Source: Candidatus Poribacteria bacterium | GTDB taxonomy: Bacteria > Poribacteria > WGA-4E > PCPOR2b | DNA: 64,000 nucleotides | Assembly (NCBI GenBank): GCA_965215015.1 | Contig: OZ244042.1 | Location: forward strand, 5,312,001-5,376,000 | Direction: 5' to 3' | Shown here: positions 10,029 to 37,798 of the stretch, piece after piece | How the letters are laid out: each line of letters starts with the position of its first letter | Numbering within the stretch: position 1 is the first letter of the stretch | Program-made: the position numbers and the translations under genes | The notes under the pieces: model-generated | Told to the model about the DNA's origin: nothing | Seen by the model: the letters and a program-made list of their open reading frames with translations, nothing else | Database searches by the model: none

Positions 10029-10994
10029 TTAGTACCACGCCGCTTTGTTGACCACGTTGCGTAACGGTTCACCGGCAGCAAACCGACGGACGTTTTCGAG
10101 GATGATTTCAAATCGGCGTTCAGGGATATTCTCGGCATCCTTCACGGCGATGTGGGGTGTGAGCAGAACGTTGGGTAGATTCCATAAACGGTGATCCGCC
10201 GGCAGCGGTTCTATCTCGAATACGTCAAGCCCACACCCAGCAATTTCGCCTCGCTCAACAGCGTCTGCGAGGTCGTTGATTTTCATCGTTTTGCCGCGAC
10301 CGATGTTGATAAAGTAGGCGGTGTCCCTCATCAGGCGGAAACGTTGAGCATTCCATATCCCCTCAGTTTCGGGTGTGTGCGGCGTTGTCGCTATTATGAA
10401 ATCGGCGCGTGGCAGCAGGGCATCCAAATCCGTCGGTGGGTGCATCTCGACGTATGGGAGGTCATATTCGGGTCTCGGCTCTACACCGATTACTGTCATG
10501 CCAAATTCTGCACATAGTCTCGCTGTCTCATGACCGATGCCTCCCACACCGAAGATTAGGGCGGTGGATTCAGCGAGATCGACATACCCATTTTTACGGG
10601 CGTCCGGGTCCCATCTTCGCTCCCGTTGTGCCTCGACGTAGTAAGGCAATCCCCGGGAGAGCGCGAGCAAGAACATCATAATATGGTGGCTGATGTGATC
10701 ATAGTAGATACCGCGTGGGTTACAGATCACCACGGGGTGCTCAATCAGTTCCTTATAATAGTAGCCCGGGAAGGGGCCTGCATCTGGATTTTGCAGCCAC
10801 CGCAATTTTGTCGCGCCCTTCAGCGCATCGGGCGGCACCCAACCGAATGCCGCATCAGCATCGGCGATTTCACGGCGTGCTTCTTCGTCTGTTTTGGGGA
10901 GCTCGACCCGATACTCCGGGAGGTTTGCCTCCAGACGCGGGGCAAACTCGCGCTTGAGGTCGTCTAACGGTGGCATCATTACAAATTTAATCAT
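10029..10994 (-). CDS. D-2-hydroxyacid dehydrogenase (NAD-binding)
   Basis: GVGGIG Rossmann motif, INIGRG, LDVFEIEPLP, LLTPHIA. Confidence 0.9.
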   Translation of the reverse strand: MIKFVMMPPLDDLKREFAPRLEANLPEYRVELPKTDEEARREIADADAAFGWVPPDALKGATKLRWLQNPDAGPFPGYYYKELIEHPVVICNPRGIYYDHISHHIMMFLLALSRGLPYYVEAQRERRWDPDARKNGYVDLAESTALIFGVGGIGHETARLCAEFGMTVIGVEPRPEYDLPYVEMHPPTDLDALLPRADFIIATTPHTPETEGIWNAQRFRLMRDTAYFINIGRGKTMKINDLADAVERGEIAGCGLDVFEIEPLPADHRLWNLPNVLLTPHIAVKDAENIPERRFEIILENVRRFAAGEPLRNVVNKAAWY

Positions 10995-11039
10995 GGTGTG
11001 TTCCTCTATAATTGCTAGGATATATGTAAAATACCTTTA

Positions 11040-11400
11040 AGACCCCCCTCGGTCCCCCCGCAAGCGGGGGGATGGGTGCAGGCGTGGTTCATTCACAGTC
11101 CCTGCCGTAAGAACCCCCCTCGGTCCCCCCGCAAGCGGGGGGATGGGTGCAAGTGGGGTTCATTCACAGTCTCTACTACACTTTCATTGCCATAAGACCC
11201 CCCCTCGGTTCCCCCGCAAGCGGGGGGAGGGTGCAAGTGGGGTTCATTCAGACCCCCCCTCAGTCCCCCCCGCAAGCAGGGGGGATGGGTGCAGGCGGAG
11301 GGGAAACCGTGTGGGTATTCGGGATTAGGGGGAGGTGCCTGCCTACAGCACAGACAATCCCCAGGCCACAGGGGAACCACAAGGGTTCCCCCTACACAAG
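11040..11400. repeat. Four tandem C/G-rich palindromic units (CCCCCCTCGGTCCCCCCGCAAGCGGGGGG...GTTCATTCA) plus a GTAG-REP at ~11371-11395
   Basis: Units at about 11041, 11112, 11196 and 11251. Confidence 0.85.
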
Positions 11401-11456
11401 CCCCAATCGTTTCAGAGGCCTTAGGATTGGTTCAATTTGTCGAATATCAACAGGGT

Positions 11457-13097
11457 TTAGCCGAAGCGGGATCGGCGAGCCTCCATATTGGTGTGCACAT
11501 CGAGCAGTACCGTGCGACCGTCCGCGTTCAGTTGCTGCGCCTGCTCAAGTGCGGGAACCATTTCACTCGGTTTAACCACGGTGATGCCGACTGCCCCCAT
11601 GCCTTCAGCAATCTTGGCGTAATCGCCTGTCATTTCCGTTGTGCCAAATTGGTCGCGGGCCGTCGGATAGCCGCCTGGGTAGGTTGCCATTCCACCGTTA
11701 TTGAGGACAACGGTAGTGATGGGCGCATCAGCGCGAACAGAGGTTTCGATGTCTAAGCCGGACATACCAAAAGCGCCATCGCCCATGAAGTTCAAGCAGA
11801 ACTTATCGGGCTTTGCGATCTTCGCCCCAATCATCACCGGTATTCCGAAACCGAGGTGGGTGGTTTTGCCCCAACCGATGTAGCTGTGCGGCACCGTTCC
11901 GGGGTAGAAGGGCATGATTGAATCGCGCGGGGCACCGGCATCGTGGGTAACGATGCTGTTCTCCAAATCCATTGCCTTGACCATATCCCCAATCACACGG
12001 TATGTGTTAATGGGCTCTTCGTCGGAGGTGAGCAGGGAGTCCCACTCTGCCAGCCACGTTTTTTTGAGTTTGGCAATATCTGTGGCGACGTGCGTTTTGC
12101 CTTTTCTCCCGTTTTCGCCGAGTTGGGCTTTGGCTTCCTCAATCATAGCCTGCAACGTCAGCTTAGCATCACCGGGCAGTCCGATGTCAACGGAGAAGTC
12201 TTTGTTGATATCCTCAATACTTTCGGCGTTGTGGATGATGACCTTACCCTCCGGGATGGGTTGACCGTAATGGGTGCGGGTCATACTTGAGCCGATGGCG
12301 AATAGCACGTCCGATTCCTGTAACCACGTCCGTGCAGGGAGGGTGGTCGCGCCGCTCCCGGAGCCAACGGAGAGGGGATGACGCTCGTCGAAGGAGGATT
12401 TACCGGGCATCGTGCAGTACACCGGTATCTCGGTCAACTCAGCAAATTCTGTGAGTGCCTCGGTTGCCCCGGAGAGCAGCACCCCCATACCGGACCAGAT
12501 GACCGGTTTCTTCGCGTTTAGCAGTTCCTTAACGGCGTCTTTGATATCGCCGGGAGCTGGGATTTGAAGTGCTCGTTTCGGTGGCTTGTAGTTGAGCCCA
12601 TCGTCTGGGACTTCTTGCAGCCCAATGTCGCCCGGTGTCTCAACGATTACGGGCCCGGGGCGTCCATTCCGAAGCTGGTGGAAAGCCCGCCGCATGACGC
12701 TAGCAACTTGACTCGGTTTTGTAATGACTTCGCCATACTTTGATACTGTCTGATATGTGCGAACCGGTGAGAAGGAGGGACGGACCGCATACTCGTCAAT
12801 TGCGGGGCCGCCCGGCAGGTACAGAATTGGAACGTTGTCCGCAAAAGCCTGTGCGATACCGCCCATAGAGTTTTCCGCGCCGGGGCCGCCTTGTGTGATG
12901 ATGACGCCGAATTTATTACGGTTGTTGACACGGCTGTATCCATCAGCTGCCATAACGGCACCGCGTTCGTGCCGAAACATGACGGTCCGAATGCCTTCTT
13001 GAGCAGTCGCTTCGATGAGTTGATTGGAGGGGAAACAGGATATCCACTCAACGCCTTCGATTTTCAAGATTCGCGCTACGGCTTGTGTTGTGTCCAT
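11457..13097 (-). CDS. Thiamine pyrophosphate-requiring enzyme (acetolactate synthase-like)
   Basis: RHERGAVMAADGYSR, GPGAEN, RPGPV, GDGAF...LNNGG TPP-binding motif. Confidence 0.9.
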   Translation of the reverse strand: MDTTQAVARILKIEGVEWISCFPSNQLIEATAQEGIRTVMFRHERGAVMAADGYSRVNNRNKFGVIITQGGPGAENSMGGIAQAFADNVPILYLPGGPAIDEYAVRPSFSPVRTYQTVSKYGEVITKPSQVASVMRRAFHQLRNGRPGPVIVETPGDIGLQEVPDDGLNYKPPKRALQIPAPGDIKDAVKELLNAKKPVIWSGMGVLLSGATEALTEFAELTEIPVYCTMPGKSSFDERHPLSVGSGSGATTLPARTWLQESDVLFAIGSSMTRTHYGQPIPEGKVIIHNAESIEDINKDFSVDIGLPGDAKLTLQAMIEEAKAQLGENGRKGKTHVATDIAKLKKTWLAEWDSLLTSDEEPINTYRVIGDMVKAMDLENSIVTHDAGAPRDSIMPFYPGTVPHSYIGWGKTTHLGFGIPVMIGAKIAKPDKFCLNFMGDGAFGMSGLDIETSVRADAPITTVVLNNGGMATYPGGYPTARDQFGTTEMTGDYAKIAEGMGAVGITVVKPSEMVPALEQAQQLNADGRTVLLDVHTNMEARRSRFG

Positions 13098-27652: not shown

Positions 27653-27725
27653 GCTGGCGTAGCTCAGTTGGTAGAGCGAGTGATTTGTAATCACTTAGTC
27701 GGGGGTTCAAGTCCTCTCGCCAGCT
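27653..27725 (+). tRNA. tRNA-Thr(TGT)
   Basis: Cloverleaf GCTGGCG...CGCCAGC, anticodon loop TTTGTAA, GTTCAA T-loop. Confidence 0.95.
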
Positions 27726-27743
27726 TTCACTCTATCTTAAAGT

Positions 27744-27825
27744 GGGGGGATACCCAAGTGGTCAACGGGAGCAGACTGTAAATCTGTTGGCACTGCCTGC
27801 GGAGGTTCAAATCCTTCTCCCCCCA
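27744..27825 (+). tRNA. tRNA-Tyr(GTA)
   Basis: GGGGGGA...TCCCCCC acceptor stem, loop CTGTAAA, long variable arm. Confidence 0.95.
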
Positions 27826-27873
27826 TCATTCCTAAGCGTCGGAGACGCGGCCCTGTGGCGTCCCAAGCAAAAC

Positions 27874-27946
27874 GCGGGAGTAGCTCAGTTGGTAGAGCAT
27901 TGGCCTTCCAAGCCAATTGTCGCGGGTTCAAGTCCCGTCTCCCGCT
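27874..27946 (+). tRNA. tRNA-Gly(TCC)
   Basis: GCGGGAG...CTCCCGC, loop CTTCCAA. Confidence 0.95.
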
Positions 27947-27983
27947 TTTAGGTTTTGCTTCCAGGCGTGTGTTTCCTAGTTAT

Positions 27984-28059
<76 letters not shown>

Positions 28060-28104
28060 TCCCGTTTTTTGACTCGCTGCAGTCAAAGGAAATTGGGGGG
28101 TATT

Positions 28105-28257
28105 ATGCCAAGAGATATTGTCACGTTGGCGTGTGATGATTGCAAACAGCGAAATTATGCCACAACAAGAAACAAAAGAACGCAGCAAGCGCGTTATGAG
28201 TTGAAGAAATATTGTCGCTATTGTCGTAAGCACACACCGCACAAAGAGGTTCGATAG
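28105..28257 (+). CDS. rpmG: 50S ribosomal protein L33 (Zn-binding type)
   Basis: MPRDIVTLACDDCKQRNY...LKKYCRYCRKHTPHKE. Confidence 0.95.
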   Translation: MPRDIVTLACDDCKQRNYATTRNKRTQQARYELKKYCRYCRKHTPHKEVR

Positions 28258-28280
28258 CGTTTTAATTAATTTTGTCTTGC

Positions 28281-28354
28281 AGGCCAGTAGCTCGAACGGC
28301 TAGAGCGTCGGTCTCCAAAACCGAATGTTGGGGGTTCGAATCCCTCCTGGCCTG
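28281..28354 (+). tRNA. tRNA-Trp(CCA)
   Basis: AGGCCAG...CTGGCCT, loop CTCCAAA, canonical position before secE. Confidence 0.95.
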
Positions 28355-28376
28355 CCTTTTTTGTTTTTGGTGACCT

Positions 28377-28754
28377 ATGATAACACGTATAAAGACGTTT
28401 ATTCGAAACATTCGGGCTGAATGGGATAAGGTATCCAAGCCGGACCGGAAGGAAGTGCAAGGCAATACCCTTGTGGTGATTGTGGCTTGTGTAATTTTGG
28501 GAATTTTCCTCTGGATCGTTGACGGAAATACAGAGTATCCCGGGTGGGTTTCTATACACGGTATCATTTTACTGGTAGGAATTATCGTGTGTGTAACCGT
28601 GGTTGCAAAACGCTATACACCGAGATGGCCAATTGCGTTTTTAATTTCCCTCATTCCATTGATAGTTGTGGCTGCTTCCTATTTCGCTCTCAACTATTCC
28701 ATTGAAGGTTTCGGGCTGGCTTTGTTACGTAGCCTGTTCATTCGGACAGGTTAA
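28377..28754 (+). CDS. secE: Preprotein translocase subunit SecE (extended C-terminus)
   Basis: FIRNIRAEWDKVSKPDRKEV..NTLVVI motif; lies between tRNA-Trp and nusG. Confidence 0.85.
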   Translation: MITRIKTFIRNIRAEWDKVSKPDRKEVQGNTLVVIVACVILGIFLWIVDGNTEYPGWVSIHGIILLVGIIVCVTVVAKRYTPRWPIAFLISLIPLIVVAASYFALNYSIEGFGLALLRSLFIRTG

Positions 28755-28794
28755 TCCGCGGGCAAGTCTAACTGATTTCAGATGTAGGTGCGTT

Positions 28795-29340
28795 ATGGAC
28801 GGTTTTTGGTATATTCTTCATATCTATTCTGGGCATGAAAAAAAGGTAAAACTAAACCTTGAGCAACGGGCGCGAGCGTTGGGGTTAGAGGAAGAAGTTT
28901 GCCAAGTAATTGTTCCAACCAAAGAGGTTGTAGAAATTAAAAACGGCAAAAAACGGACATTTGAACGTCCATCTTACCCCGGCTATCTCCTCGTCCAGAC
29001 AGCACACGAACTTCGCGCAGATGCTTCAAACGAGGCAAGTCAGCGGAGTTGGCACCTCATCCAAGATACGCCGAGTGTTATGGATGTTATTGCCCCACTT
29101 ACTGAAGAAGAGGTTCAGCATGTTCTCAATCTGTCAACAGATGAGGAGAAAAAGCCGGCACCTCCAATGGTAGAGCACGCGATTGGCGATAAAGTCCGAG
29201 TGATTGATGGCCCGTTTAAGGAGTTTCCCGCAGAGATTAATGGGATTGACGCAGATAGACAACGCCTACATTTGACGATTTCTATCCTAGGCAGATCTAC
29301 GCCGATTGAACTGGATCATTTCCAGGTAGAAAAGATATAG
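28795..29340 (+). CDS. nusG: Transcription termination/antitermination factor NusG
   Basis: WYILHIYSGHEKKVK, YPGYLLV, KOW GDKVRVIDGPF, ILGRSTPIEL. Confidence 0.95.
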   Translation: MDGFWYILHIYSGHEKKVKLNLEQRARALGLEEEVCQVIVPTKEVVEIKNGKKRTFERPSYPGYLLVQTAHELRADASNEASQRSWHLIQDTPSVMDVIAPLTEEEVQHVLNLSTDEEKKPAPPMVEHAIGDKVRVIDGPFKEFPAEINGIDADRQRLHLTISILGRSTPIELDHFQVEKI

Positions 29341-29347
29341 GTTCCAT

Positions 29348-29485
29348 TTGCAAGAGGAATTAGCGGAGTTGCCGATTGGTGAATTGGGACGCCGGATTGA
29401 GCAAGCAATTCAGAAGTTAATCGGTGAGAGACAGGAGCAGCACCCTGAAGGTCCAGAGAAACCGAGGGATTAGGAGGGGAACGCC
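29348..29485 (+). repeat. Orphan duplicate of the 3' end of gene 31080-31739 plus RBS
   Basis: Near-identical to 31614-31751 (offset 2266 bp); begins 8 bp after the nusG stop. Confidence 0.9.
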
Positions 29486-30469
29486 ATGTTCAGGCTATCC
29501 TATGACAAAAGGCTGTTCCGTTTGGCCCTTTCAATTTTCTTATTATTGATAGCGAAAACCCCAGTCCCCGCCGTTGGTGCTGACGGTAAACTTATCTTCA
29601 GCCATAGGGTTGAATTGTGGACGATGAACCCCGACGGCACCAATCCGCAAGCTCTAGGCATTGAAGGGAGGCAACCGAGTTGGTCGCCAGATGGCAGCCA
29701 AATTGTGTTTATAGTTTACCACCGTGGCGATAAAATGGGAGGCAAAAACCGGTTTACCGAAACGTTCATCATCAATGCCGACGGGAGTGACCGGCGTTTG
29801 CTGATGAGTACCCAACATTTAGAGTGGAGATTGGATAGCCTTCCGGTCTGGTCTCCAGATGGCAGCCGCATCGCTTTTTTTTCTAATCGTCCCGGGCGAG
29901 ATGACATTTTCGTCATTGATGTTGCGGGGGAGAATCTGACCAATTTGACGAATTCACCAGAGATTCATGAACGCGTCCCATCGTGGTCTCCGGATGGGAC
30001 GCATATCCTGTATAAATCATGGGATGACCATTTTCACACGCTGCGTTTAGCCGATGGGCATAAAACACAGGTGACTCAGGCCCAAGGAGATCGCCGCTTC
30101 CCCGTCTGGTCGCCGGATGGGAAACAGATTGCCTTCGCCGGCGATGTACGGGGTGAGGTAGATAATTTGGATATCTATATCATGGACATCGAAACCGGCG
30201 TCGAAGAACGACTGACAGTCCACCCTGACGATGATTTTCGCCCTGCATGGTCTCCGGATGGGAAGCATATCGTGTTTGAATCCAAGGGGGATGGGGGGTA
30301 CGATCTCTATCGTATCACGGTCGCTTCAGGAGAAGTGGTCCGGTTAACCCAGCTCCATGAAGTCAATGGATTTTTCTCAGATTGGTGTTGCATCGGGGCG
30401 TGGCCGGCAAACGTCAATCCGCGCCATCGCGAACTAATTCGGTGGGGACAGTTGAAAGTCAATCGCTGA
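29486..30469 (+). CDS. Secreted PD40/TolB-like beta-propeller, copy A
   Basis: Signal peptide, repeated PxWSPDG blades, C-terminal VNPRHRELIRWGQLK. Confidence 0.9.
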   Translation: MFRLSYDKRLFRLALSIFLLLIAKTPVPAVGADGKLIFSHRVELWTMNPDGTNPQALGIEGRQPSWSPDGSQIVFIVYHRGDKMGGKNRFTETFIINADGSDRRLLMSTQHLEWRLDSLPVWSPDGSRIAFFSNRPGRDDIFVIDVAGENLTNLTNSPEIHERVPSWSPDGTHILYKSWDDHFHTLRLADGHKTQVTQAQGDRRFPVWSPDGKQIAFAGDVRGEVDNLDIYIMDIETGVEERLTVHPDDDFRPAWSPDGKHIVFESKGDGGYDLYRITVASGEVVRLTQLHEVNGFFSDWCCIGAWPANVNPRHRELIRWGQLKVNR

Positions 30470-30528
30470 TTAAACGGATTAAAGGATGCCACAGATTAAA
30501 TCCGCGAAGTCAATAGGAGACGATAGTA

Positions 30529-30590
30529 GTTGACCCGAGCGAAATTCACGCTGCTATTTGCGATTTTACTGAATCCGTATAGCGTCTCCT
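30529..30590 (+). pseudogene. Degenerate 5' remnant of the matrixin gene
   Basis: Encodes LTRAKFTLLFAILLNPYSVS*, matching MLPRATFTLLFAIILNL of 34848; preceded by the same spacer as at 32739-32795. Confidence 0.7.
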
Positions 30591-31079
30591 GACATTGAGA
30601 TAGGATCGGCAGAAGCACCGGGGACAACTGTAGTTACACCCACTACACCAAACGCTTCTTGAGAAATGCGAGCCCAACTCAACATCAACCTCATGTTTCC
30701 CCTCACGCTCGGGGGTACCTCGATGGCAGGATGCGGCATAAATCTGCCAGCAGGTAAAGGAGATATATGGTAGGACTCACGCATTTCCACAGGGAACACC
30801 GCTCGTTGTTCCCTACGAACCCCTTATCGCACCTTTACTGTATATAGTTGCCCGATTCATCGGGCGTTGGTAACGGTGTCCAGCGGCGATAAATCGCCGA
30901 GGATACCGTGACTCTTGTGCTAGAGTCATGGCTCAACCCACCCTGAACATTGCGCGACCTTTTCTGGTGTTGGCTTTGAGCGTTCAATCGCGTAATTCCT
31001 AGTATGATATAATGCAACTGTCTTCGAGAAAACCTGATGCGATATTTTATTTCAATCCTAATTTAACAAGGAATTCAAG

Positions 31080-31739
31080 ATGAAACAGAGAAGCTTTACC
31101 CATCAATTGACTGTGTGGGCCGTGGCCGTTGCCATTCTAATCATCGTCTATCCAGCACAAGCGTCAATCGTCGGTGCGTTGACATTAGACGATTTGCTAC
31201 GCGGTTCAACACTGATTGTCCAAGGCGAGGTCTCGCGAATCCACAGCCAGTTCGACCCAAACCACAGAACAATCTATACGGAACTTGATATTAGATACCG
31301 CGCTAACGATGGCATCCTCTTTGAGGACCGTGAAAAGAATGACAGCGTCAGAAGGCGCTCTCCCAATACTGTGACACTTAAATTGCTCGGTGGCAGTGCC
31401 AATGTGCCTACGCCCCAAGGCGTCAAGAGACGGGTCTTAGTGGTTGTGGGCAACCCCGGATTTCAAGTCGGTGAAAGGGTGCTGCTGTTTGCGTCTCCGG
31501 GAAAAAATGAGTTTTTGGGTTTCTTTCGGTTGTCTGGTATGGCACAAGGGAAGTGGCGTATCGAAAACGGCGTAGCGAAACGGAGCAGCGGCGGGGCTCA
31601 AATTATTGGTCAGTTGCAAGAGGAATTAGCGGAGTTACCGATTGGTGAATTGGGACGCCGGATTGAGCAAGCGATTCAGAAGTTAATCGGTGAGAGACAG
31701 GAGCAGAACCCTGAAGGTCCAGAGAAACCGAGGGATTAG
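31080..31739 (+). CDS. Secreted hypothetical protein resembling the NTR/OB-like domain often found N-terminal to bacterial matrixins
   Basis: Signal peptide ending AQA; LTLDDLL..STLIVQGEV, TIYT, LLGG, GNPGFQVGERVLLF, GMAQGKW. Family assignment is from recalled pattern only. Confidence 0.65.
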   Translation: MKQRSFTHQLTVWAVAVAILIIVYPAQASIVGALTLDDLLRGSTLIVQGEVSRIHSQFDPNHRTIYTELDIRYRANDGILFEDREKNDSVRRRSPNTVTLKLLGGSANVPTPQGVKRRVLVVVGNPGFQVGERVLLFASPGKNEFLGFFRLSGMAQGKWRIENGVAKRSSGGAQIIGQLQEELAELPIGELGRRIEQAIQKLIGERQEQNPEGPEKPRD

Positions 31740-31751
31740 GAGGGGGACGCC

Positions 31752-32738
31752 ATGTTCAGGCTATCCTATGACAAAAGACTGTTCCGTTTGGCCATTTCAA
31801 TTTTCTTATTATTGATAGCGAAAATCCCGGACTTCGCTGCTGCTGCGGAGGGTAAACTTGTCTTCAGCCATAGGGGTGAATTGTGGACGATGAACCCCGA
31901 CGGCACCAATCGGCAAGCTCTAGGCATTGAAGGGGGGCAACCGAGTTGGTCGCCAGATGGCAGCCAAATTGTGTTTATAGTTTACCACCGTGGCGATAAA
32001 ACGCAAGGCAAAAACCGGTTTATCGAAACGTTCATCATCAATGCTGACGGGAGTGACCGGCGTTTACTGATGAGTACCCAACATTTAGAGGGGAAAATGG
32101 ATTTTAGTCCCGCTTGGTCTCCGGATGGCAGCCGCATCGCTTTCTCCTCTGATCGTCCCGGGCAATATGACATTTTCGTGATTGATGTTTCGGGGGAGAA
32201 TCTGGCCAATTTGACGAATTCACCAGAGATTCATGAATACGCCCCATCGTGGTCTCCGGATGGGACGCATATCCTGTATAAATCATGGGATGACCACTTT
32301 CACACGCTGCGTTTAGCCGATGGGCATAAAACACAGGTGACTCAGGCCCAAGGGGATCGCCGCAATCCCGTCTGGTCTGCGGATGGGAAACAGATTGCCT
32401 TCGCCGGCGATGTACGGGGTGAGGTAGATAATTTGGATATCTATATCATGGACATCGAAACCGGCGTCGAAAAACGACTGACAGTCCACCCTGACGAGGA
32501 TTTTTGCCCTGCGTGGTCGCCGGATGGGGCGTATATTGTGTTTGAGTCCGATAGGGGGGATAGGGGTTACGATCTCTATCGTATCACGGTCGCTTCAGGA
32601 GAAGTGGTCCGGTTAACCCAGCTCCATGAAGGCAATGGATTTTCCCCGGATTGGTGTTGCATCGGGGAGAGGCCGGCAAACGTCAATCCGCGCCATAGCG
32701 AACTAATTCGGTGGGGACAGTTGAAGGTCGATCACTGA
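31752..32738 (+). CDS. Secreted PD40/TolB-like beta-propeller, copy B
   Basis: As copy A. Confidence 0.9.
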   Translation: MFRLSYDKRLFRLAISIFLLLIAKIPDFAAAAEGKLVFSHRGELWTMNPDGTNRQALGIEGGQPSWSPDGSQIVFIVYHRGDKTQGKNRFIETFIINADGSDRRLLMSTQHLEGKMDFSPAWSPDGSRIAFSSDRPGQYDIFVIDVSGENLANLTNSPEIHEYAPSWSPDGTHILYKSWDDHFHTLRLADGHKTQVTQAQGDRRNPVWSADGKQIAFAGDVRGEVDNLDIYIMDIETGVEKRLTVHPDEDFCPAWSPDGAYIVFESDRGDRGYDLYRITVASGEVVRLTQLHEGNGFSPDWCCIGERPANVNPRHSELIRWGQLKVDH

Positions 32739-32795
32739 TTAAACGGATTAAAGGATTCCGCAGATTAAATCCGCAAGGTCAAAAGGAGAAGATAG

Positions 32796-33764
32796 ATGTT
32801 ACCTCGAGCGACATTCACGCTACTGTTTGCGATTATACTGAATTTACTCCTGTTTCCTCTTGCGGCTGCTGCTGCGGAGGGTAAGCTTGTCTTCAGCCAT
32901 AGGGTTGAATTGTGGACGATGAACCCCGACGGCACCAATCCGCAAGCTCTAGGCATTGAAGGGAGGCAACCGAGTTGGGCGCCAGATGGCAGCCAAATTG
33001 TGTTTATAGTTTACCACCGTGGCGATAAAACGCAAGGCAAAAACCGGTTTACCGAAACGTTCATCATCAATGCCGACGGGAGCGACCGGCGTTTACTGAT
33101 GAGTACCCAACATTTAGAGGAGAAAATGGATTTTAGTCCCACTTGGTCTCCGGATGGCAGCCGCATCGCTTTCTCCTCTAATCGTCCCGGGCAATATGAC
33201 ATTTTCGTGATTGATGTTGCGGGCGAGAATCTGACCAATTTGACGAATTCACCAGAGATTCATGAATGGGTTCCATCGTGGTCTCCGGATGGGACGCGTA
33301 TTCTGTATAAATCATGGGATGACCACTTTCACACGCTGCGTTTAGCCGATGGGCATAAAACACAGGTGACTCAGGCCCAAGGAGATCGCCGCTTCCCCGT
33401 CTGGTCGCCGGATGGGAAACAGATTGCCTTCGCCGGCGATGTACGGGGTGAGGTAGATAATTTGGATATCTATATCATGGACATCGAAACCGGCGTCGAA
33501 AAACGACTGACAATCCACCCTGACGATGATTTTCGCCCTGCGTGGTCGCCGGATGGGAAGCATATCGTGTTTGAATCCGAGGGGGATGGGGGTTACGATC
33601 TCTATCGCATCACGGTCGCTTCACGAGAAGTGGTCCGGTTAACCCAGCTCCATGAAGTCAATGGATTTTTCTCAGATTGGTGTTGCATCGGGGTGTGGCC
33701 GGCAAACGTTAATCCGCGCCATCGCGAACTAATTCGGTGGGGACAGTTGAAAGTCGATCGCTGA
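32796..33764 (+). CDS. Secreted PD40/TolB-like beta-propeller, copy C (matrixin-derived signal peptide)
   Basis: As copy A; N-terminus MLPRATFTLLFAIILNLLL. Confidence 0.9.
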   Translation: MLPRATFTLLFAIILNLLLFPLAAAAAEGKLVFSHRVELWTMNPDGTNPQALGIEGRQPSWAPDGSQIVFIVYHRGDKTQGKNRFTETFIINADGSDRRLLMSTQHLEEKMDFSPTWSPDGSRIAFSSNRPGQYDIFVIDVAGENLTNLTNSPEIHEWVPSWSPDGTRILYKSWDDHFHTLRLADGHKTQVTQAQGDRRFPVWSPDGKQIAFAGDVRGEVDNLDIYIMDIETGVEKRLTIHPDDDFRPAWSPDGKHIVFESEGDGGYDLYRITVASREVVRLTQLHEVNGFFSDWCCIGVWPANVNPRHRELIRWGQLKVDR

Positions 33765-33821
33765 TTAAGCAGATTAAAGGATTCCGCAGATTAAATCCGC
33801 AAGGTCAAAAGGAGAAGATAG

Positions 33822-34790
33822 ATGTTACCTCGAGCGACATTCACGCTACTGTTTGCGATTATACTGAATTTACTCCTGTTTCCTCTTGCGGCTGTTGGTG
33901 CGGAGGGTAAACTTGTCTTCAGCCATAGGGTTGAATTGTGGACGATGAACCCCGACGGCACCAATCGGCAAGCTCTAGGCATTGAAGGGGGGGAACCGAG
34001 TTGGTCGCCAGATGGAAGCCAAATTGTGTTTATAGTTTACCACCGTGGCGATAAAACGCAAGGCAAAAACCGGTTTATCGAAACGTTCATCATCAATGCT
34101 GATGGGAGCGACCGGCGTTTACTGATGAGTACCCAACATTTAGAGGGGAGATTGGATAGCCTTCCGGTCTGGTCTCCAGATGGCAGCCGCATCGCTTTCT
34201 TCTCTAATCGTCCCGGGCAATATGACATTTTCGTGATTGATGTTTCGGGAGAGAATCTGACCAATTTAACTAATTCACCAGAGATTCATGAATACGTCCC
34301 ATCGTGGTCTCCGGATGGGACGCATATCCTGTATCAATCATGGGATGACCACTTTCACACGCTGCGTTTAGCCGATGGGCATAAAACACAGGTGACTCAG
34401 GCCCAAGGAGATCGCCGCAATCCCGTCTGGTCTGCGGATGGGAAACAGATTGCCTTCGCCGGCGATGTACAGGGTGAGGTAGATAACCTGGATATCTATA
34501 TCATGGACATCGAAACCGGCGTCGAAAAACGACTGACAGTCCACCCTGACGAGGATTTTCGCCCTGCATGGTCTCCGGATGGGGCGTATATCGTGTTTGA
34601 ATCTGAGGGGGATGGGGGGTACGATCTCTATCGCATCACGGTCGCTTCGCGAGAAGTGGTCCGGTTAACCCAGCTCCATGAAGGCAATGGATTTTCCCCG
34701 GATTGGTGTTGCATCGGGGTGTGGCCGGCAAACGTTAATCCGCGCTATAGCGAACTAATTCGGTGGGGACAGTTGAAGGTCGATCGCTGA
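33822..34790 (+). CDS. Secreted PD40/TolB-like beta-propeller, copy D (matrixin-derived signal peptide)
   Basis: As copy C; 1026-bp period. Confidence 0.9.
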   Translation: MLPRATFTLLFAIILNLLLFPLAAVGAEGKLVFSHRVELWTMNPDGTNRQALGIEGGEPSWSPDGSQIVFIVYHRGDKTQGKNRFIETFIINADGSDRRLLMSTQHLEGRLDSLPVWSPDGSRIAFFSNRPGQYDIFVIDVSGENLTNLTNSPEIHEYVPSWSPDGTHILYQSWDDHFHTLRLADGHKTQVTQAQGDRRNPVWSADGKQIAFAGDVQGEVDNLDIYIMDIETGVEKRLTVHPDEDFRPAWSPDGAYIVFESEGDGGYDLYRITVASREVVRLTQLHEGNGFSPDWCCIGVWPANVNPRYSELIRWGQLKVDR

Positions 34791-34847
34791 TTAAGCAGAT
34801 TAAAGGATTCCGCAGATTAAATCCGCAAGATTAAAAGGAGAAGATAG

Positions 34848-36551
34848 ATGTTACCTCGAGCGACATTCACGCTACTGTTTGCGATTATACTGAATTTACT
34901 CCTGTTGTCGAATTGGGTGGTTGCAAGTGATGGAGTTTTCACACTAATGAAGCCGCTCACATCGGACTTCAGTGTTGACGATAGAGATTATTGGGATATG
35001 CAGTATATTAACCCACTTACCGATACCGCCCCCCATTTTTTCGCGCATCAATCACACCCCGTGATTACGTACTATATTGCCGCATCGCGGCCAGATGAGG
35101 GTGAAACGAGTGGCACTCAGAACGTCACCGGCACGGAGGTTAGGAAAATTCGAGAGGCTTTCAAAGATTGGGGGCAGGTTACAATTGGAAACGTCGTTCA
35201 CGGCAACCGTCGATCCGCGATTGAATTTATCGAAGGCGGCAAGGTCCCCCCAGATGCCGAGGGCAGATATAACCTCATTGACGATAACAAAAATGTTATC
35301 TACTGGAGTGCTGACAATGGCTTTTTCGGAAGCGATATAGATTTTACAACTCAAGATTGTAGGGCTGGGACTTTAGCGGTTACTTTACTGACCTTCGATG
35401 TGACGGACCCCAATCAGGTCAAAATCGCCGACGCCGATATCGCTTTGAATGGGTCGTTAAATGAGATACTAACGAATCGGCCGAGAGATTATAAATGGAC
35501 CACCAGCGATGGCTTTGACCAGAAGGGCCGTCTCAAGAGGTGTGAGGCGGATATACAAGGGGTTGTCACCCACGAAATTGGGCATCTGCTCGGCATCGGT
35601 CATTCCCCACGGCCAAATAACTCTCAGACCCCTGATGATGTAACGATGTGGGATGGAGATAGCTGGTCAGTATACCTTTTCGACGATTGGGATACCATGC
35701 GAGACTTATCAAACGACGACATCGCCGCCATCCAGTATATGTACGGCAATCCATCCGCAGCGGATCCCGATGACTATCCCCTCCACGTGCCGCGGGTTTT
35801 CCAAAGCATTGAAGAGGCAGCCGAATTTGCCGCGGCGTCTTCGTTTGCTCAGACGATACTCGTCAGTGCCAACGCCAGCCTTGTTGATCCGGTGGATAGG
35901 GCATCAACGACTCCCATAACAGTCGTAATCTCTGCTAAGGACCGGTTGAAAATCGAGGGTTCTATAAACATCAGCTGTCAAACAGGTGCGAAACTCGAAA
36001 TTCAAGGTGCCCTTATCGCTAATGCGGTGGGCTTTCAGTCAACGACGTCGAGCGAAAAATGGGGTGGGATAGTTCTCAAGAACGAGGGAGAGGTTCAACT
36101 CACTAACTGCACGTTAAGCGACGCGCTCACCGCCATCACATGCGAAAATCCCACAGGGACCGTCATCATCCAAAACTGCACCTTCGAGAGCAACGACCAG
36201 GATATTTTCGGCTGTGCCGCTGCCTCGCCGGCACCGATGCGGGTAGACTCTATTCCCCGAACGAACAAACTCTTGCTGAACTATCCGAACCCGTCCAATC
36301 CTGAAACGTGGATTCCGTATCAGCTTGCCAGCGATGCCGATGTACAGATTTTAATCTATGATACAGAAGGGGAGTTGGTGCGTCGGTTAGATTTAGGTCA
36401 TCAGGGGGCAGGCTATTACACGGATCTGGGTCAATCCGCGTATTGGGACGGTCGCAACGAACGGGGAGAATCGGTGGCAAGTGGAGTGTACTTCTGCACA
36501 CTGACGGCCGATGACTACACCGAAACCCGTAAGATGCTGATTCTGAAGTAG
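34848..36551 (+). CDS. Secreted matrixin (M10/MMP-like) zinc metalloprotease with beta-helix-like segment and FlgD-Ig/T9SS-like C-terminal domain
   Basis: HEIGHLLGIGHS (HExxHxxGxxH), Met-turn VTMW, LSNDDIAAIQYMYG; CTD NYPNPSNPETWIPYQL...WDGRNERGESVASGVYF...RKMLILK. Confidence 0.9.
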   Translation: MLPRATFTLLFAIILNLLLLSNWVVASDGVFTLMKPLTSDFSVDDRDYWDMQYINPLTDTAPHFFAHQSHPVITYYIAASRPDEGETSGTQNVTGTEVRKIREAFKDWGQVTIGNVVHGNRRSAIEFIEGGKVPPDAEGRYNLIDDNKNVIYWSADNGFFGSDIDFTTQDCRAGTLAVTLLTFDVTDPNQVKIADADIALNGSLNEILTNRPRDYKWTTSDGFDQKGRLKRCEADIQGVVTHEIGHLLGIGHSPRPNNSQTPDDVTMWDGDSWSVYLFDDWDTMRDLSNDDIAAIQYMYGNPSAADPDDYPLHVPRVFQSIEEAAEFAAASSFAQTILVSANASLVDPVDRASTTPITVVISAKDRLKIEGSINISCQTGAKLEIQGALIANAVGFQSTTSSEKWGGIVLKNEGEVQLTNCTLSDALTAITCENPTGTVIIQNCTFESNDQDIFGCAAASPAPMRVDSIPRTNKLLLNYPNPSNPETWIPYQLASDADVQILIYDTEGELVRRLDLGHQGAGYYTDLGQSAYWDGRNERGESVASGVYFCTLTADDYTETRKMLILK

Positions 36552-36655
36552 TGGCAGGCTCGTGCGTCTGTCAATTGATGAAAATTACACGATCTGAGTT
36601 TAGTTATCTATTTGATGCAATAGGTAGCAACTTAGGTTAGATTAAGGAGATATAG

Positions 36656-37081
36656 ATGGCTAAGAAGGTTGCCGGGGTTGTTAAACTTCAGCTGATATCC
36701 GGGCAGGCGACGCCGAATCCACCTGTTGGTCCGAGCCTCGCCCCTTATATGATTAATATCCCGGAATTTATCAAGTCTTTTAACGGTCGAACGCAGGATC
36801 AACAGGGGTTAGTGGTTACGACTGTTGTCACCTGTTACGCAGATCGTTCGTTCACTTTTGAAGTGAAATCGCCGCCGACAGCTGTGTTGTTGAAGCAGGC
36901 AGCAAAGCTGGCGAAAGGGTCCGGCGAGCCCAACCGCAATAAGGTCGCTTCCGTAACATCGACGCAGGTTCAGGAGATAGCCCAAACGAAGTTGCCAGAT
37001 CTGAATACAACCAGCTTGGAATCTGCGGTGCGGATGGTTGCAGGGACGGCACGGAGCATGGGAATTACTATCAATCAATAA
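36656..37081 (+). CDS. rplK: 50S ribosomal protein L11
   Basis: MAKKV...[11 protein letters not shown]...GTARSMGI. Confidence 0.97.
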
Positions 37082-37099
37082 TTGTTGGAGAGGATGACA

Positions 37100-37798
37100 A
37101 TGGGCAAAAGAGGAAGAAGATACCGTGAAGGTTCACAACTGGTTGACCGCTTAAAGCTGTACGATTTAGATGAAGGTGTGCAGCTGTTGAAAAAGTCTGC
37201 GTCAGCAAAGTTTGAAGAGACGGTCGATTTGGCGGTACATCTTGGCGTAGATCCCCGGCACGCGGATCAGAATATCCGGGGCACTGTTTCTTTACCGCAT
37301 GGCACCGGTCAGGAGATACGCGTTGTTGTTTTCGCTCAAGGGGATAAGGCTCGTGAGGCAGAAGAGGCGGGAGCCGATGCGGTTGGCACCGATGACCTCG
37401 TCGAAAAGATTGTTGATGGCTGGTTGGACTTTGACGCAACTGTTGCGACCCCGGATTTGATGCGGTCGATCATGCCGAAGTTGGGGCGGATTCTCGGGCC
37501 GAGAGGCTTAATGCCGAATGCAAAAGCAGGAACTGTCACTATGGATGTGGCAGAGATAATTCGCAGCATTAAAGCTGGGCAGATTGAGTATCGAGTCGAG
37601 AAGCAATCGGGAGTGATTCAGGCCCCTGTAGGCAAAGCTTCGTTTGACAATCATCAAATTAAAGAAAACATCCAAGCGGTGATGGGTGCCCTGATGCGGG
37701 CCCGTCCGTCTTCTATCAAAGGAAGATATGTGAAGACTATTGCAGTCTCATCAACGATGGGCGTTGGAATTCGTCTAGAGCCGCAGCAGTTTAGCTAA
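37100..37798 (+). CDS. rplA: 50S ribosomal protein L1
   Basis: AKFEETVD, DQNIRGTVSLPHGTG, LGRILGPRGLMPN, SSTMG. Confidence 0.97.
   Translation: MGKRGRRYREGSQLVDRLKLYDLDEGVQLLKKSASAKFEETVDLAVHLGVDPRHADQNIRGTVSLPHGTGQEIRVVVFAQGDKAREAEEAGADAVGTDDLVEKIVDGWLDFDATVATPDLMRSIMPKLGRILGPRGLMPNAKAGTVTMDVAEIIRSIKAGQIEYRVEKQSGVIQAPVGKASFDNHQIKENIQAVMGALMRARPSSIKGRYVKTIAVSSTMGVGIRLEPQQFS

What the first reader, a model, noticed from the sequence alone, without database searches (positions are those of the whole stretch)
29486..34790. Four-copy beta-propeller array shuffled by recombination, with variation focused on one position of each blade
Seen: four PD40 genes (A-D) are near-identical, yet differences cluster just before each P-x-WSPDG (GRQ/GGQ/GRQ/GGE; WRLDSL/GKMDFS/EKMDFS/GRLDSL; ERV/EYA/EWV/EYV; RRF/RRN/RRF/RRN; DDFR/EDFC/DDFR/EDFR; VNGFFS/GNGFSP). 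The sharing patterns are mutually incompatible: most sites group A+C vs B+D, blade 2 groups A+D vs B+C, and VASG/VASR groups A+B vs C+D. No single duplication tree explains this. Inference: segmental gene conversion builds combinatorial binding faces on a secreted propeller, i.e. a variable receptor or adhesin repertoire. No RT or recombinase is present in the window.
Basis: partly seen in the sequence, partly recalled or inferred. Interest (0 to 1): 0.82.

Follow-up and report, generated by a model that had tools for sequence, protein, structure and literature searches.

The report
Recombining tandem PD40 propeller genes
Four side-by-side copies of a secreted propeller-shaped binding protein have swapped pieces by ordinary recombination, and their remaining differences sit mostly at the mouth of each propeller blade, a pattern that recurs in other such arrays of this genome but is not shown to be a programmed diversity system.

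Summary
Four intact PD40 genes (A-D) are 86-91% identical in protein. Their informative sites split three incompatible ways: AC|BD 21, AD|BC 17, AB|CD 4. This is non-random along the gene (PHI-like p 0.0002-0.033; runs 12 vs 21, p 0.0009; A-D blade-2 tract p 0.0002).

Amino-acid differences concentrate in the six residues before each P-x-W (15/36 vs 31/258 columns). The same holds in five other PD40 arrays of this genome (30/174 vs 89/1342).

The mechanism is ordinary homologous recombination (gene conversion or unequal crossover) in a lineage-specific expansion. Relatives carry the same cassette, nusG-orf219-PD40-M10 protease-rplK, with one or two PD40 copies. Copies within a genome are more alike than orthologues, which indicates concerted evolution.

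No reverse transcriptase is in the genome and no tyrosine recombinase in the window.

Diversifying selection is not shown. dN/dS is 0.28-0.63 overall and about 1 in the hot windows. The "one face" claim is only moderately supported: 26 top, 11 bottom, 4 middle.

PD40 proteins are a known expanded class in sponge microbiomes. An earlier scan note (e1-777563) reports partial homogenisation of another gene pair in this genome, not this locus.

Verdict: real, a new member of a known kind, moderate interest.

The parts
28795..29340 (+). nusG, left border of the inserted cassette
   Evidence: Pfam NusG + KOW. 90% identical over 181 aa to the gene at the same place in G004 and G002.
29345..29485 (+). 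Relic of the 3' end of the 219-aa gene, duplicated together with copy A
   Evidence: 94% identical to 31611-31751 (repeat family D6; alignment).
29486..30469 (+). PD40 copy A (327 aa, MF-type signal peptide)
30470..30574 (+). Inter-copy spacer plus a degraded start of an MLP-type signal peptide with no start codon
   Evidence: 87% identical to the spacers and starts after B and C, 84% to that after D. Alignment columns 1100-1199. Sequence shown.
30771..31001 (.). Dispersed short repeat (MITE- or REP-like)
   Evidence: BLASTN finds well over 150 partial or full copies across the genome at 68-96% identity.
31080..31739 (+). orf219, a secreted protein of no known family and a conserved cassette member
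   Evidence: No Pfam or NCBIfam hit. 85-87% identical orthologues at the same place in G004 and G002. TIMP/NTR is only a weak lead.
31752..32738 (+). PD40 copy B (328 aa, MF-type signal peptide)
32796..33764 (+). PD40 copy C (322 aa, MLP-type signal peptide)
33822..34790 (+). PD40 copy D (322 aa, MLP-type signal peptide). This copy was modelled.
29828..29881 (+). Blade-2 exchange tract in A. Its counterparts are D 34149-34202, B 32094-32147 and C 33123-33176. A matches D and B matches C, against the AC|BD background.
   Evidence: 12 consecutive AD|BC informative sites, including synonymous ones. GENECONV-like p 0.0002. Coordinates.
34158..34163 (+). Example of the hottest pair of codons (W-4, W-3, just before the Pro of P-x-W), blade 2 of D. 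All 24 such pairs are listed.
   Evidence: 9 of 12 such codon columns vary in amino acid in this array, and 18 of 58 in five other arrays.
34848..36551 (+). M10-type metalloprotease with a beta-helix and a T9SS type A sorting tail. Its first ~19 residues are identical to those of C and D.
   Evidence: Pfam Peptidase_M10, Beta_helix, FlgD_ig. TIGR04183 scores 27.9, above its cut-off of 23. Shared start shown.
36656..37081 (+). rplK (L11), right border of the cassette
   Evidence: 93% identical orthologues flank the cassette in G004 and G002. Named L11 by one source.

Best explanation
This is a lineage-specific expansion of a secreted six-bladed PD40 (TolB-type) beta-propeller gene, from one or two copies to four. 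The gene belongs to a conserved cassette, orf219 - PD40 - M10 metalloprotease, that sits between nusG and rplK.

The copies exchange sequence by ordinary homologous recombination, either gene conversion or unequal crossing-over between tandem repeats. This keeps them 93-95% alike (concerted evolution) and leaves a mosaic of short tracts. That much is shown.

The remaining differences concentrate in the end of the D-to-A loop and the first residues of the inner strand A of each blade, above all the two residues before the Pro of P-x-W, and in the B-C loops. These lie on the side of the propeller around the central channel that such domains usually use for binding.

Inferred, not shown: the copies are binding modules with slightly different ligand preferences. 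These few positions either resist homogenisation or are old alleles not yet erased. The ligand, and any link to the neighbouring protease, are unknown.
For: Recombination:
- Three incompatible partitions, 21/17/4.
- PHI-like and runs tests and a GENECONV-like tract.
- Flanks group A with B: the orf219 tail is 94% identical and both have MF signal peptides. The bodies group A with C and B with D.

Concerted evolution:
- Two signal-peptide types (MF and MLP), with the same junction into the mature part, occur in this genome, in G004 and in metagenome proteins.
- Yet within-genome copies are 0.926-0.949 identical against 0.80-0.83 to orthologues. The G004 pair (0.849) is also closer to each other than to G000 copies.

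Expansion:
- G002 has 1 copy and G004 has 2 in the same nusG...rplK cassette.
- Only 4 of 20 genomes of the genus hold this subfamily at E<=1e-100.

Focus of variation:
- 15/36 vs 31/258 columns.
- Replicated in five other arrays, 30/174 vs 89/1342.
- W-4/W-3 vary in 9/12 columns here and 18/58 elsewhere.
- Top half 26/139 vs bottom 11/120.

Fold:
- PD40 x5 by Pfam.
- The model has six blades closed by N-terminal strands plus the C-terminal DWCCIG strand, pLDDT 73.
- Best structural matches are TolB and S9-peptidase propellers.

Generality and exclusions:
- A second four-copy array at 2.91 Mb is also mosaic: 26/14/12, runs 10 vs 28.8.
- No special machinery was found: no RT, no A-bias, no integrase in the window, no meaningful inverted repeats.
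Against: - Phasing of the four copies rests on one assembly. The public contigs I could lay are short and none bridges a copy.
- Selection at the hot positions is unresolved. Hot-window dN/dS is 1.2-1.34 (interval 0.73-2.17) here and 0.53-0.81 in the other arrays. Between species it is 0.2-1.1. Local synonymous divergence at the hottest codons is also raised.
- Sharing of hot alleles with the two G004 paralogues is weak. Only 12 usable sites exist, and the pattern A,C = type 1 / B,D = type 2 occurs at 4 of them.
- The face assignment is topological, taken from a model of moderate confidence, and 11 of 41 variable residues lie on the other half.
- No expression or binding data exist.
Confidence: 0.6

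Rival explanations
1. One reading: a selected, recombination-fed repertoire. Gene conversion among copies is favoured because it creates new combinations of blade-mouth residues. This would give a variable receptor or adhesin set under diversifying selection.
For: - Hot positions replicate in six arrays.
- pN at W-4/W-3 over gene-wide pS is 2.81 (1.57-4.51) here and 1.68 (0.96-2.52) in five other arrays.
- The same positions carry 5-8 different residue pairs among 21 orthologues.
- The genome holds about 38 short PD40 proteins in 8 tandem arrays.
- A known analogue exists in fungal WD-repeat het genes (PMC1805685, abstract).
Against: - Only four copies and essentially two haplotypes, with one clear cassette swap.
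- Local dN/dS at the hot codons is about 1 (0.291/0.271).
- The hot-window interval includes 1.
- The exchange is mainly homogenising.
- There are no silent cassettes or an expression site. All copies are complete, each with its own ribosome-binding site.
Confidence: 0.25
2. A purely neutral picture. The loops are simply the least constrained part of any propeller, and the pattern is incomplete homogenisation of recent duplicates with no functional differentiation.
For: - Hot-window dN/dS is near 1.
- Between species the same window runs at 0.2-1.1 against 0.10-0.21 for the rest.
- Synonymous divergence is also raised at the hot codons.
Against: - All four copies are intact, with signal peptides and ribosome-binding sites.
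- Multi-copy arrays recur through the genome and genus.
- Cold-region dN/dS of 0.19-0.55 shows the copies are under constraint.
Confidence: 0.3
3. An assembly artefact. The four copies, or their mosaic linkage, are chimeras of strain variants collapsed or mis-joined in a metagenome assembly.
For: - The genome carries a 3.89% contamination estimate.
- No laid contig spans a whole copy, so linkage is unverified.
Against: - The genome is a single 5.94-Mb contig.
- Each copy has distinct flanks (orf219 tail, MF or MLP starts, a degraded start after A) that fit a coherent duplication history.
- A separate four-copy array is mosaic too.
- Related single-contig genomes show the same cassette with one or two copies.
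Confidence: 0.07
4. A dedicated diversification machine: a diversity-generating retroelement, or a site-specific shufflon or invertase.
For: None found beyond the site-focused variation itself.
Against: - PF00078 finds nothing in the whole genome, while the control genomes ring.
- Mismatches are at A in only 17-25% of cases for any template/target pair.
- All 11 tyrosine-recombinase hits lie outside the window.
- No inverted repeats flank the genes.
Confidence: 0.02

Closest known systems
TolB C-terminal beta-propeller (Tol-Pal system)
   Same: Six-bladed PD40 propeller. The best solved-structure matches include TolB from E. coli, Yersinia, Salmonella and Acinetobacter. The repeat signature P-x-W-S-P-D-G is shared.
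   Different: It has no TolB N-terminal domain. It scores 157 bits against the 343-bit cut-off of TIGR02800 and matches only profile positions 196-325. It lies between nusG and rplK beside a metalloprotease, not in a tol-pal operon. It is multi-copy.
PD40 / TolB-like 'eukaryotic-like proteins' enriched in sponge microbiomes
   Same: PD40 is listed among ELP classes enriched in Ircinia microbiomes (PMC9531527, passage read). A TolB-like propeller entry is enriched in Spongia officinalis (PMC5735121, passages read). This genome holds 48 PD40 hits, and an earlier scan note calls its relatives Poribacteria.
   Different: Those papers report domain counts only. In the passages I read they do not describe tandem arrays, recombination mosaics or position-specific variation.
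Podospora anserina HNWD (het-d/het-e) WD-repeat family
   Same: A beta-propeller repeat domain evolving by concerted evolution, with exchange between family members and a few variable positions per repeat on the interaction surface (PMC1805685, abstract read).
   Different: There the exchanged unit is the single repeat, repeats within a gene are nearly identical, and positive selection was demonstrated. Here whole-gene copies exchange tracts, blades within a gene are only 76-83% alike over 42 nt, and selection is unresolved. This is a secreted bacterial protein, not a cytoplasmic NLR.
Bacterial gene-conversion families with silent cassettes (pilE/pilS, vlsE and similar; recalled, not searched)
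   Same: Segmental non-reciprocal transfer between paralogous sequences changes exposed residues.
   Different: There are no truncated or promoterless donor cassettes and no single expression site. All four genes are complete, each with a start codon, signal peptide and ribosome-binding site.

Membership tests
PD40 (WD40-like beta-propeller repeat, PF07676) | Repeated ~38-aa PD40 units above the Pfam gathering score | tested here: met
   A scores 135 bits and B 156 bits against a cut-off of 20.9, five stretches each.
PD40 (WD40-like beta-propeller repeat, PF07676) | Closed propeller fold | tested here: met
   The AlphaFold2 model (pLDDT 73.3, pTM 0.69) has 22 strands in six four-strand blades. 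Foldseek matches TolB and S9-peptidase propellers at E 1e-14.
TolB proper (TIGR02800) | Full-length match above the equivalog cut-off, including the N-terminal domain | tested here: not met
   157.3 bits against a 343.15 cut-off. Only profile positions 196-325 of 418 are matched.
TolB proper (TIGR02800) | tol-pal operon context | tested here: not met
   The neighbours are nusG, orf219, an M10 protease and rplK, in three genomes.
Diversity-generating retroelement target | Reverse transcriptase nearby or in the genome | tested here: not met
   PF00078 gives 0 matches in the 98%-complete genome, while the controls ring.
Diversity-generating retroelement target | Differences confined to template adenines | tested here: not met
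   17-25% of mismatches fall at A for all 12 ordered pairs.
Silent-cassette antigenic variation systems | Truncated donor cassettes plus one expression locus | tested here: not met
   All four ORFs are complete with signal peptides, and an AAAGGAG site precedes C, D and the protease gene.
HNWD-type hypervariable WD repeats | Near-identical repeats within a gene, exchanged as units | tested here: not met
   The only inter-blade DNA similarity is a 42-nt stretch at 76-83% between blades 3 and 5 (family D7).
HNWD-type hypervariable WD repeats | Positive selection at a few surface positions per repeat | tested here: inconclusive
   At W-4/W-3, pN over gene-wide pS is 2.81 (1.57-4.51), but local pS is 0.27. 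The hot-window interval includes 1.
Sponge-symbiont eukaryotic-like protein class PD40 | Encoded by a sponge-associated symbiont | tested here: inconclusive
The evidence is indirect. I did not establish the habitat.
Tandem paralogues under concerted evolution | Paralogues within a genome more alike than orthologues between genomes, although the duplication is older than the split | tested here: met
   Identity is 0.926-0.949 within G000 and 0.849 within G004, against 0.80-0.83 between them. The MF and MLP signal types and their junction are shared across genomes.

The most novel reading that the evidence does not exclude
The roughly 38 short PD40 propellers of this genome, and the hundreds in its genus, may form a recombination-fed recognition repertoire. 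Two residues at the mouth of each blade (W-4, W-3), plus the B-C loops, would set ligand specificity. Tandem arrays would act as pools in which gene conversion both homogenises the scaffold and reshuffles blade cassettes. This would be a bacterial counterpart of the fungal HNWD WD-repeat repertoire, used to recognise host (sponge) matrix, cells or phage.
Probability: 0.2. Interest if true: 0.75.

Novelty: new member of a known kind. Interest (0 to 1): 0.42.

Why it matters
If the hot positions are specificity determinants, this genome offers a compact natural experiment. It has eight arrays of one scaffold with a handful of defined variable residues. These could show what the much-counted but functionally unknown PD40 'eukaryotic-like' proteins of sponge symbionts bind, and whether bacteria use concerted evolution plus cassette exchange to diversify a propeller face as fungi do with WD repeats.

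If the pattern is neutral, it remains a clean example of concerted evolution in a bacterial tandem array lodged inside the nusG-rplK cluster.

Tried and rejected
DGR, shufflon or invertase. No RT in the genome, no adenine bias, no tyrosine recombinase in the window, and only chance-level inverted repeats.

Promoter and terminator scan of 28000-37500. It found 8 promoter-like and 3 terminator-like sites, fewer than in shuffles (10.7 and 9.5). Nothing about transcription units can be said. Rfam found only five tRNAs upstream.

Public reads.
- Eight runs were listed. I laid four of them (X4, X7, X1, X2).
- All are short contigs. In X4 and X7 all 30 bins have cover, and 52 of 67 and 51 of 76 contigs are at least 99% alike. 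These runs may be the sample the genome came from.
- No listed piece bridges a copy, so copy number and phasing remain untested.
- X1 and X2 cover 19 and 16 of 30 bins. The uncovered parts allow no conclusion.
- A loose end at 32840/34892 turned out to be cross-mapping from a relic fragment at genome 3.176 Mb, not an alternative junction.

Trans-specific sharing of hot alleles with the two G004 paralogues. Only 12 usable sites exist: A 8:4, C 7:5, B 4:8, D 4:8. This is too weak to claim.

Other points.
I used strand topology instead.
- One search failed on a regular expression and was corrected.
- Tree-based site-wise dN/dS was not attempted, because recombination invalidates a single tree and no codon-model software is installed.
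- Literature: searches found no paper that links gene conversion with sponge-symbiont repeat proteins. In one search, none of the 10 listed papers (of 20) contains 'gene conversion'.
- PMC13747020 matched only in its reference list and was not used.

Full report
**What is there**

Window 29486-34790 holds four intact + strand genes for PD40 beta-propeller proteins: A 29486-30469, B 31752-32738, C 32796-33764 and D 33822-34790. Pfam finds five PD40 repeats in each of the two scanned. They are 86-91% identical in protein and 92.6-94.9% in DNA over the mature part.

The array is not contiguous. Between A and B lie the following:
- a spacer with a degraded start of a signal peptide that lacks its ATG (30470-30574);
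- a short dispersed repeat (30771-31001) with well over 150 copies in the genome;
- a 219-aa secreted protein gene of no known family (31080-31739).

The 141 bases upstream of A copy the 3' end of that 219-aa gene at 94% identity.

D is followed by a 567-aa M10-type metalloprotease with a beta-helix and a T9SS type A sorting tail. Its first ~19 residues are identical to those of C and D.

The whole block lies between nusG and rplK.

**Is the mosaic real?**

Over 897 aligned bases of the mature region there are 42 informative sites: 21 group A+C against B+D, 17 group A+D against B+C, and 4 group A+B against C+D. Synonymous sites take part in all three patterns, so convergent amino-acid choice cannot explain it.

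The patterns are clustered along the gene:
- A PHI-like statistic lies below its permutation distribution: p 0.0002, 0.0004 and 0.0032 for three window sizes, and 0.0038-0.033 after keeping one site per codon.
- There are 12 pattern runs where 21.0 are expected (p 0.0009).
- A GENECONV-like scan finds a tract in blade 2 where A and D agree at 13 consecutive polymorphic sites (p 0.0002), and an A-C tract at 30088-30167 (p 0.015).

The flanks tell a third story. A and B share the orf219 tail and the MF-type signal peptide, while C and D share the MLP type. No single tree fits. Sequence has moved between copies.

**History**

Related genomes of the same genus carry the same cassette between nusG and rplK. 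G002 has orf219, one PD40 gene and the protease. G004 has orf219, two PD40 genes (MF type, then MLP type) and the protease. Only 4 of 20 genomes of the genus hold this subfamily at E<=1e-100, so the four-copy state is a recent expansion.

The MLP-type start is the protease's own signal peptide. This is what a duplication of [PD40 body + spacer + start of the next gene] would produce. The junction into the mature part looks the same in this genome, in G004 and in a metagenome protein, so the two-type state predates these species.

Yet copies within a genome are more alike than orthologues between genomes. Identity is 0.926-0.949 within this genome and 0.849 within G004, against 0.80-0.83 between them. 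That is concerted evolution. In G004 the 3' tail has dS 0.158 against 0.46 elsewhere, another conversion trace.

A second four-copy PD40 array at 2.91 Mb in this genome is mosaic as well: 26/14/12 informative sites, 10 runs against 28.8 expected. An earlier scan note on another locus of this genome also reports partial homogenisation of a gene pair (e1-777563; not tested here).

**Where the differences lie**

In the six residues before each P-x-W (or D-W), 15 of 36 columns vary in amino acid, against 31 of 258 elsewhere (OR 5.2, p 4.7e-5). Synonymous-only columns are 1 of 36 against 28 of 258.

The genome has 48 PD40 hits. About 38 are short proteins of 304-369 aa with a common C-terminal motif (EW...WGxIK), in eight tandem arrays. 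Six of these arrays have 86-97% identical copies.

In the five arrays other than this one the same window is enriched: 30/174 vs 89/1342, OR 2.9, p 1.4e-5. The peak is at W-4 to W-1, with a second rise at +10 to +15, the B-C loop. In this array the two residues W-4 and W-3 vary in 9 of 12 columns; in the other arrays they vary in 18 of 58. Among 21 orthologues the same positions carry many residue pairs.

**Structure**

The model of D (pLDDT 73.3) shows six blades, the last closed by N-terminal strands plus the C-terminal DWCCIG strand, and a poorly predicted tail. The nearest solved structures are TolB and S9-peptidase propellers.

By DSSP class the variable residues are: strands 20/141, D-A loops 9/42, B-C loops 8/32, A-B turns 2/24, C-D turns 2/31 and tail 5/22. 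I assigned strand halves and loops to the two faces by propeller topology. That gives 26 of 139 top-half residues variable against 11 of 120 bottom-half (p 0.03), with 4 in the middle. Synonymous-only columns run the other way, 10 vs 16.

So the variable residues lean to the channel-mouth face but are not confined to it. This rests on topology, not on 3D distances.

**Selection**

Gene-wide dN/dS between copies is 0.28-0.63. In the hot window it is 0.66-1.5 and in the rest 0.19-0.55.

| Comparison | Estimate | Interval or note |
|---|---|---|
| Hot window, this array, vs local pS | 1.20 | - |
| Hot window, this array, vs gene-wide pS | 1.34 | 0.73-2.17 |
| Hot window, five other arrays | 0.53-0.81 | - |
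| Hot window, between species | 0.2-1.1 | rest of gene 0.10-0.21 |
| W-4/W-3, this array, pN / gene-wide pS | 2.81 | 1.57-4.51 |
| W-4/W-3, five other arrays, pN / gene-wide pS | 1.68 | 0.96-2.52 |

At W-4/W-3 local pS is also high (0.27 here and 0.16 in the other arrays). These patches may therefore be older alleles that escaped homogenisation rather than fast-evolving sites.

Some hot alleles recur in the G004 paralogues (F/L at blade 4, FS/FA at blade 6, R or Y at blade 3), but the count is too small to prove it. Diversifying selection is therefore possible but not shown.

**Mechanism and rivals**

No reverse transcriptase is found in the genome, there is no adenine bias, no tyrosine recombinase lies in the window, and there are no flanking inverted repeats. 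All four copies are complete, and C, D and the protease gene are each preceded by an AAAGGAG site, so there are no silent cassettes. The simplest mechanism is RecA-type recombination between tandem repeats.

An assembly chimera cannot be excluded, because the public contigs I could lay are short and bridge nothing. The coherent flanks, the single-contig genome and the parallel arrays argue against it.

**Comparison with what is known**

The proteins are PD40 propellers but not TolB: 157 bits against a 343-bit cut-off, no N-terminal domain and no tol-pal context.

PD40 and TolB-like domains are already counted among repeat proteins enriched in sponge microbiomes (PMC9531527 and PMC5735121, passages read). 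One distant hit is named Candidatus Poribacteria.

The closest analogue in mechanism is the Podospora HNWD family. There, WD repeats undergo concerted evolution and four surface residues per repeat are under positive selection (PMC1805685, abstract). In that family single repeats are the exchanged unit and selection was demonstrated.

My three searches found no paper that describes recombination mosaics in such bacterial arrays.

**Verdict**

The recombination inference is right. The 'combinatorial repertoire' reading is plausible but unproven. This is a new member of a known kind (tandem paralogues under concerted evolution with surface-focused differences) in a known expanded protein class. 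Interest is moderate.

Noticed in passing
window 30771-31001: A short dispersed repeat (about 230 nt) with well over 150 full or partial copies across the 5.9-Mb genome at 68-96% identity. It is MITE- or REP-like and sits between copy A and orf219.
   Followed up: partly
G000:C1 about 3175980-3176400 (locus L010): A relic fragment holding a PD40 C-terminal tail (80% identical to residues 269-322 of D), the inter-copy spacer and the first 44 bases of the MLP signal peptide, followed by unrelated sequence. A stretch like window 30580-30701 also lies nearby, in a different order.
   Followed up: partly
L026 (G031:C234) 10860-11702; protein P0020: The orthologue in G031 lacks exactly one blade. 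The sequence jumps from '...GDRRN' to 'SAWSPDG...', as expected from recombination between blade motifs, and it lies outside the nusG-rplK context.
   Followed up: partly
window 34848-34905 vs 32796-32853 and 33822-33879: The M10 metalloprotease and PD40 copies C and D share an identical signal-peptide start (about 57 nt). This suggests that the MLP-type PD40 copy arose by duplicating the PD40 body together with the start of the protease gene.
   Followed up: partly
window 31080-31739 (orf219): A secreted 219-aa protein with no Pfam or NCBIfam family. Its nearest named ESM-Atlas clusters are TIMP/NTR-like at scores of 0.89 and 0.83 (leads only). This is intriguing beside a matrixin-type protease, but the mature N-terminus has no Cys.
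   Followed up: partly
whole genome G000; e.g. C1:2911896-2916307, 4938619-4946859, 1791710-1795782: There are 48 PD40 hits. About 38 are short proteins sharing a C-terminal motif (EW...WGxIK), in eight tandem arrays. The 2.91-Mb four-copy array is as mosaic as the one studied.
   Followed up: partly
window 28795-37081; L024, L025: A three-gene secreted-protein cassette (orf219, PD40, M10 protease) splits the otherwise tightly conserved nusG-rplK junction in at least three species of the genus.
   Followed up: partly
L024 (G004) two PD40 genes, 3' ends: The two G004 paralogues have dS 0.158 in the last 22 codons against 0.46 in the rest, a sign of gene conversion in that genome too.
   Followed up: no
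window 27653-28354: Five tRNA genes, with rpmG lying between the last two of them, upstream of secE-nusG.
   Followed up: no
window 29971-30004, 33266-33299, 34292-34323: The DNA that encodes VPSWSPDGT in blade 3 is an imperfect palindrome (CGTCCCATC...GATGGGACG). It shows up as 'inverted repeats' between copies and is probably incidental.
   Followed up: no
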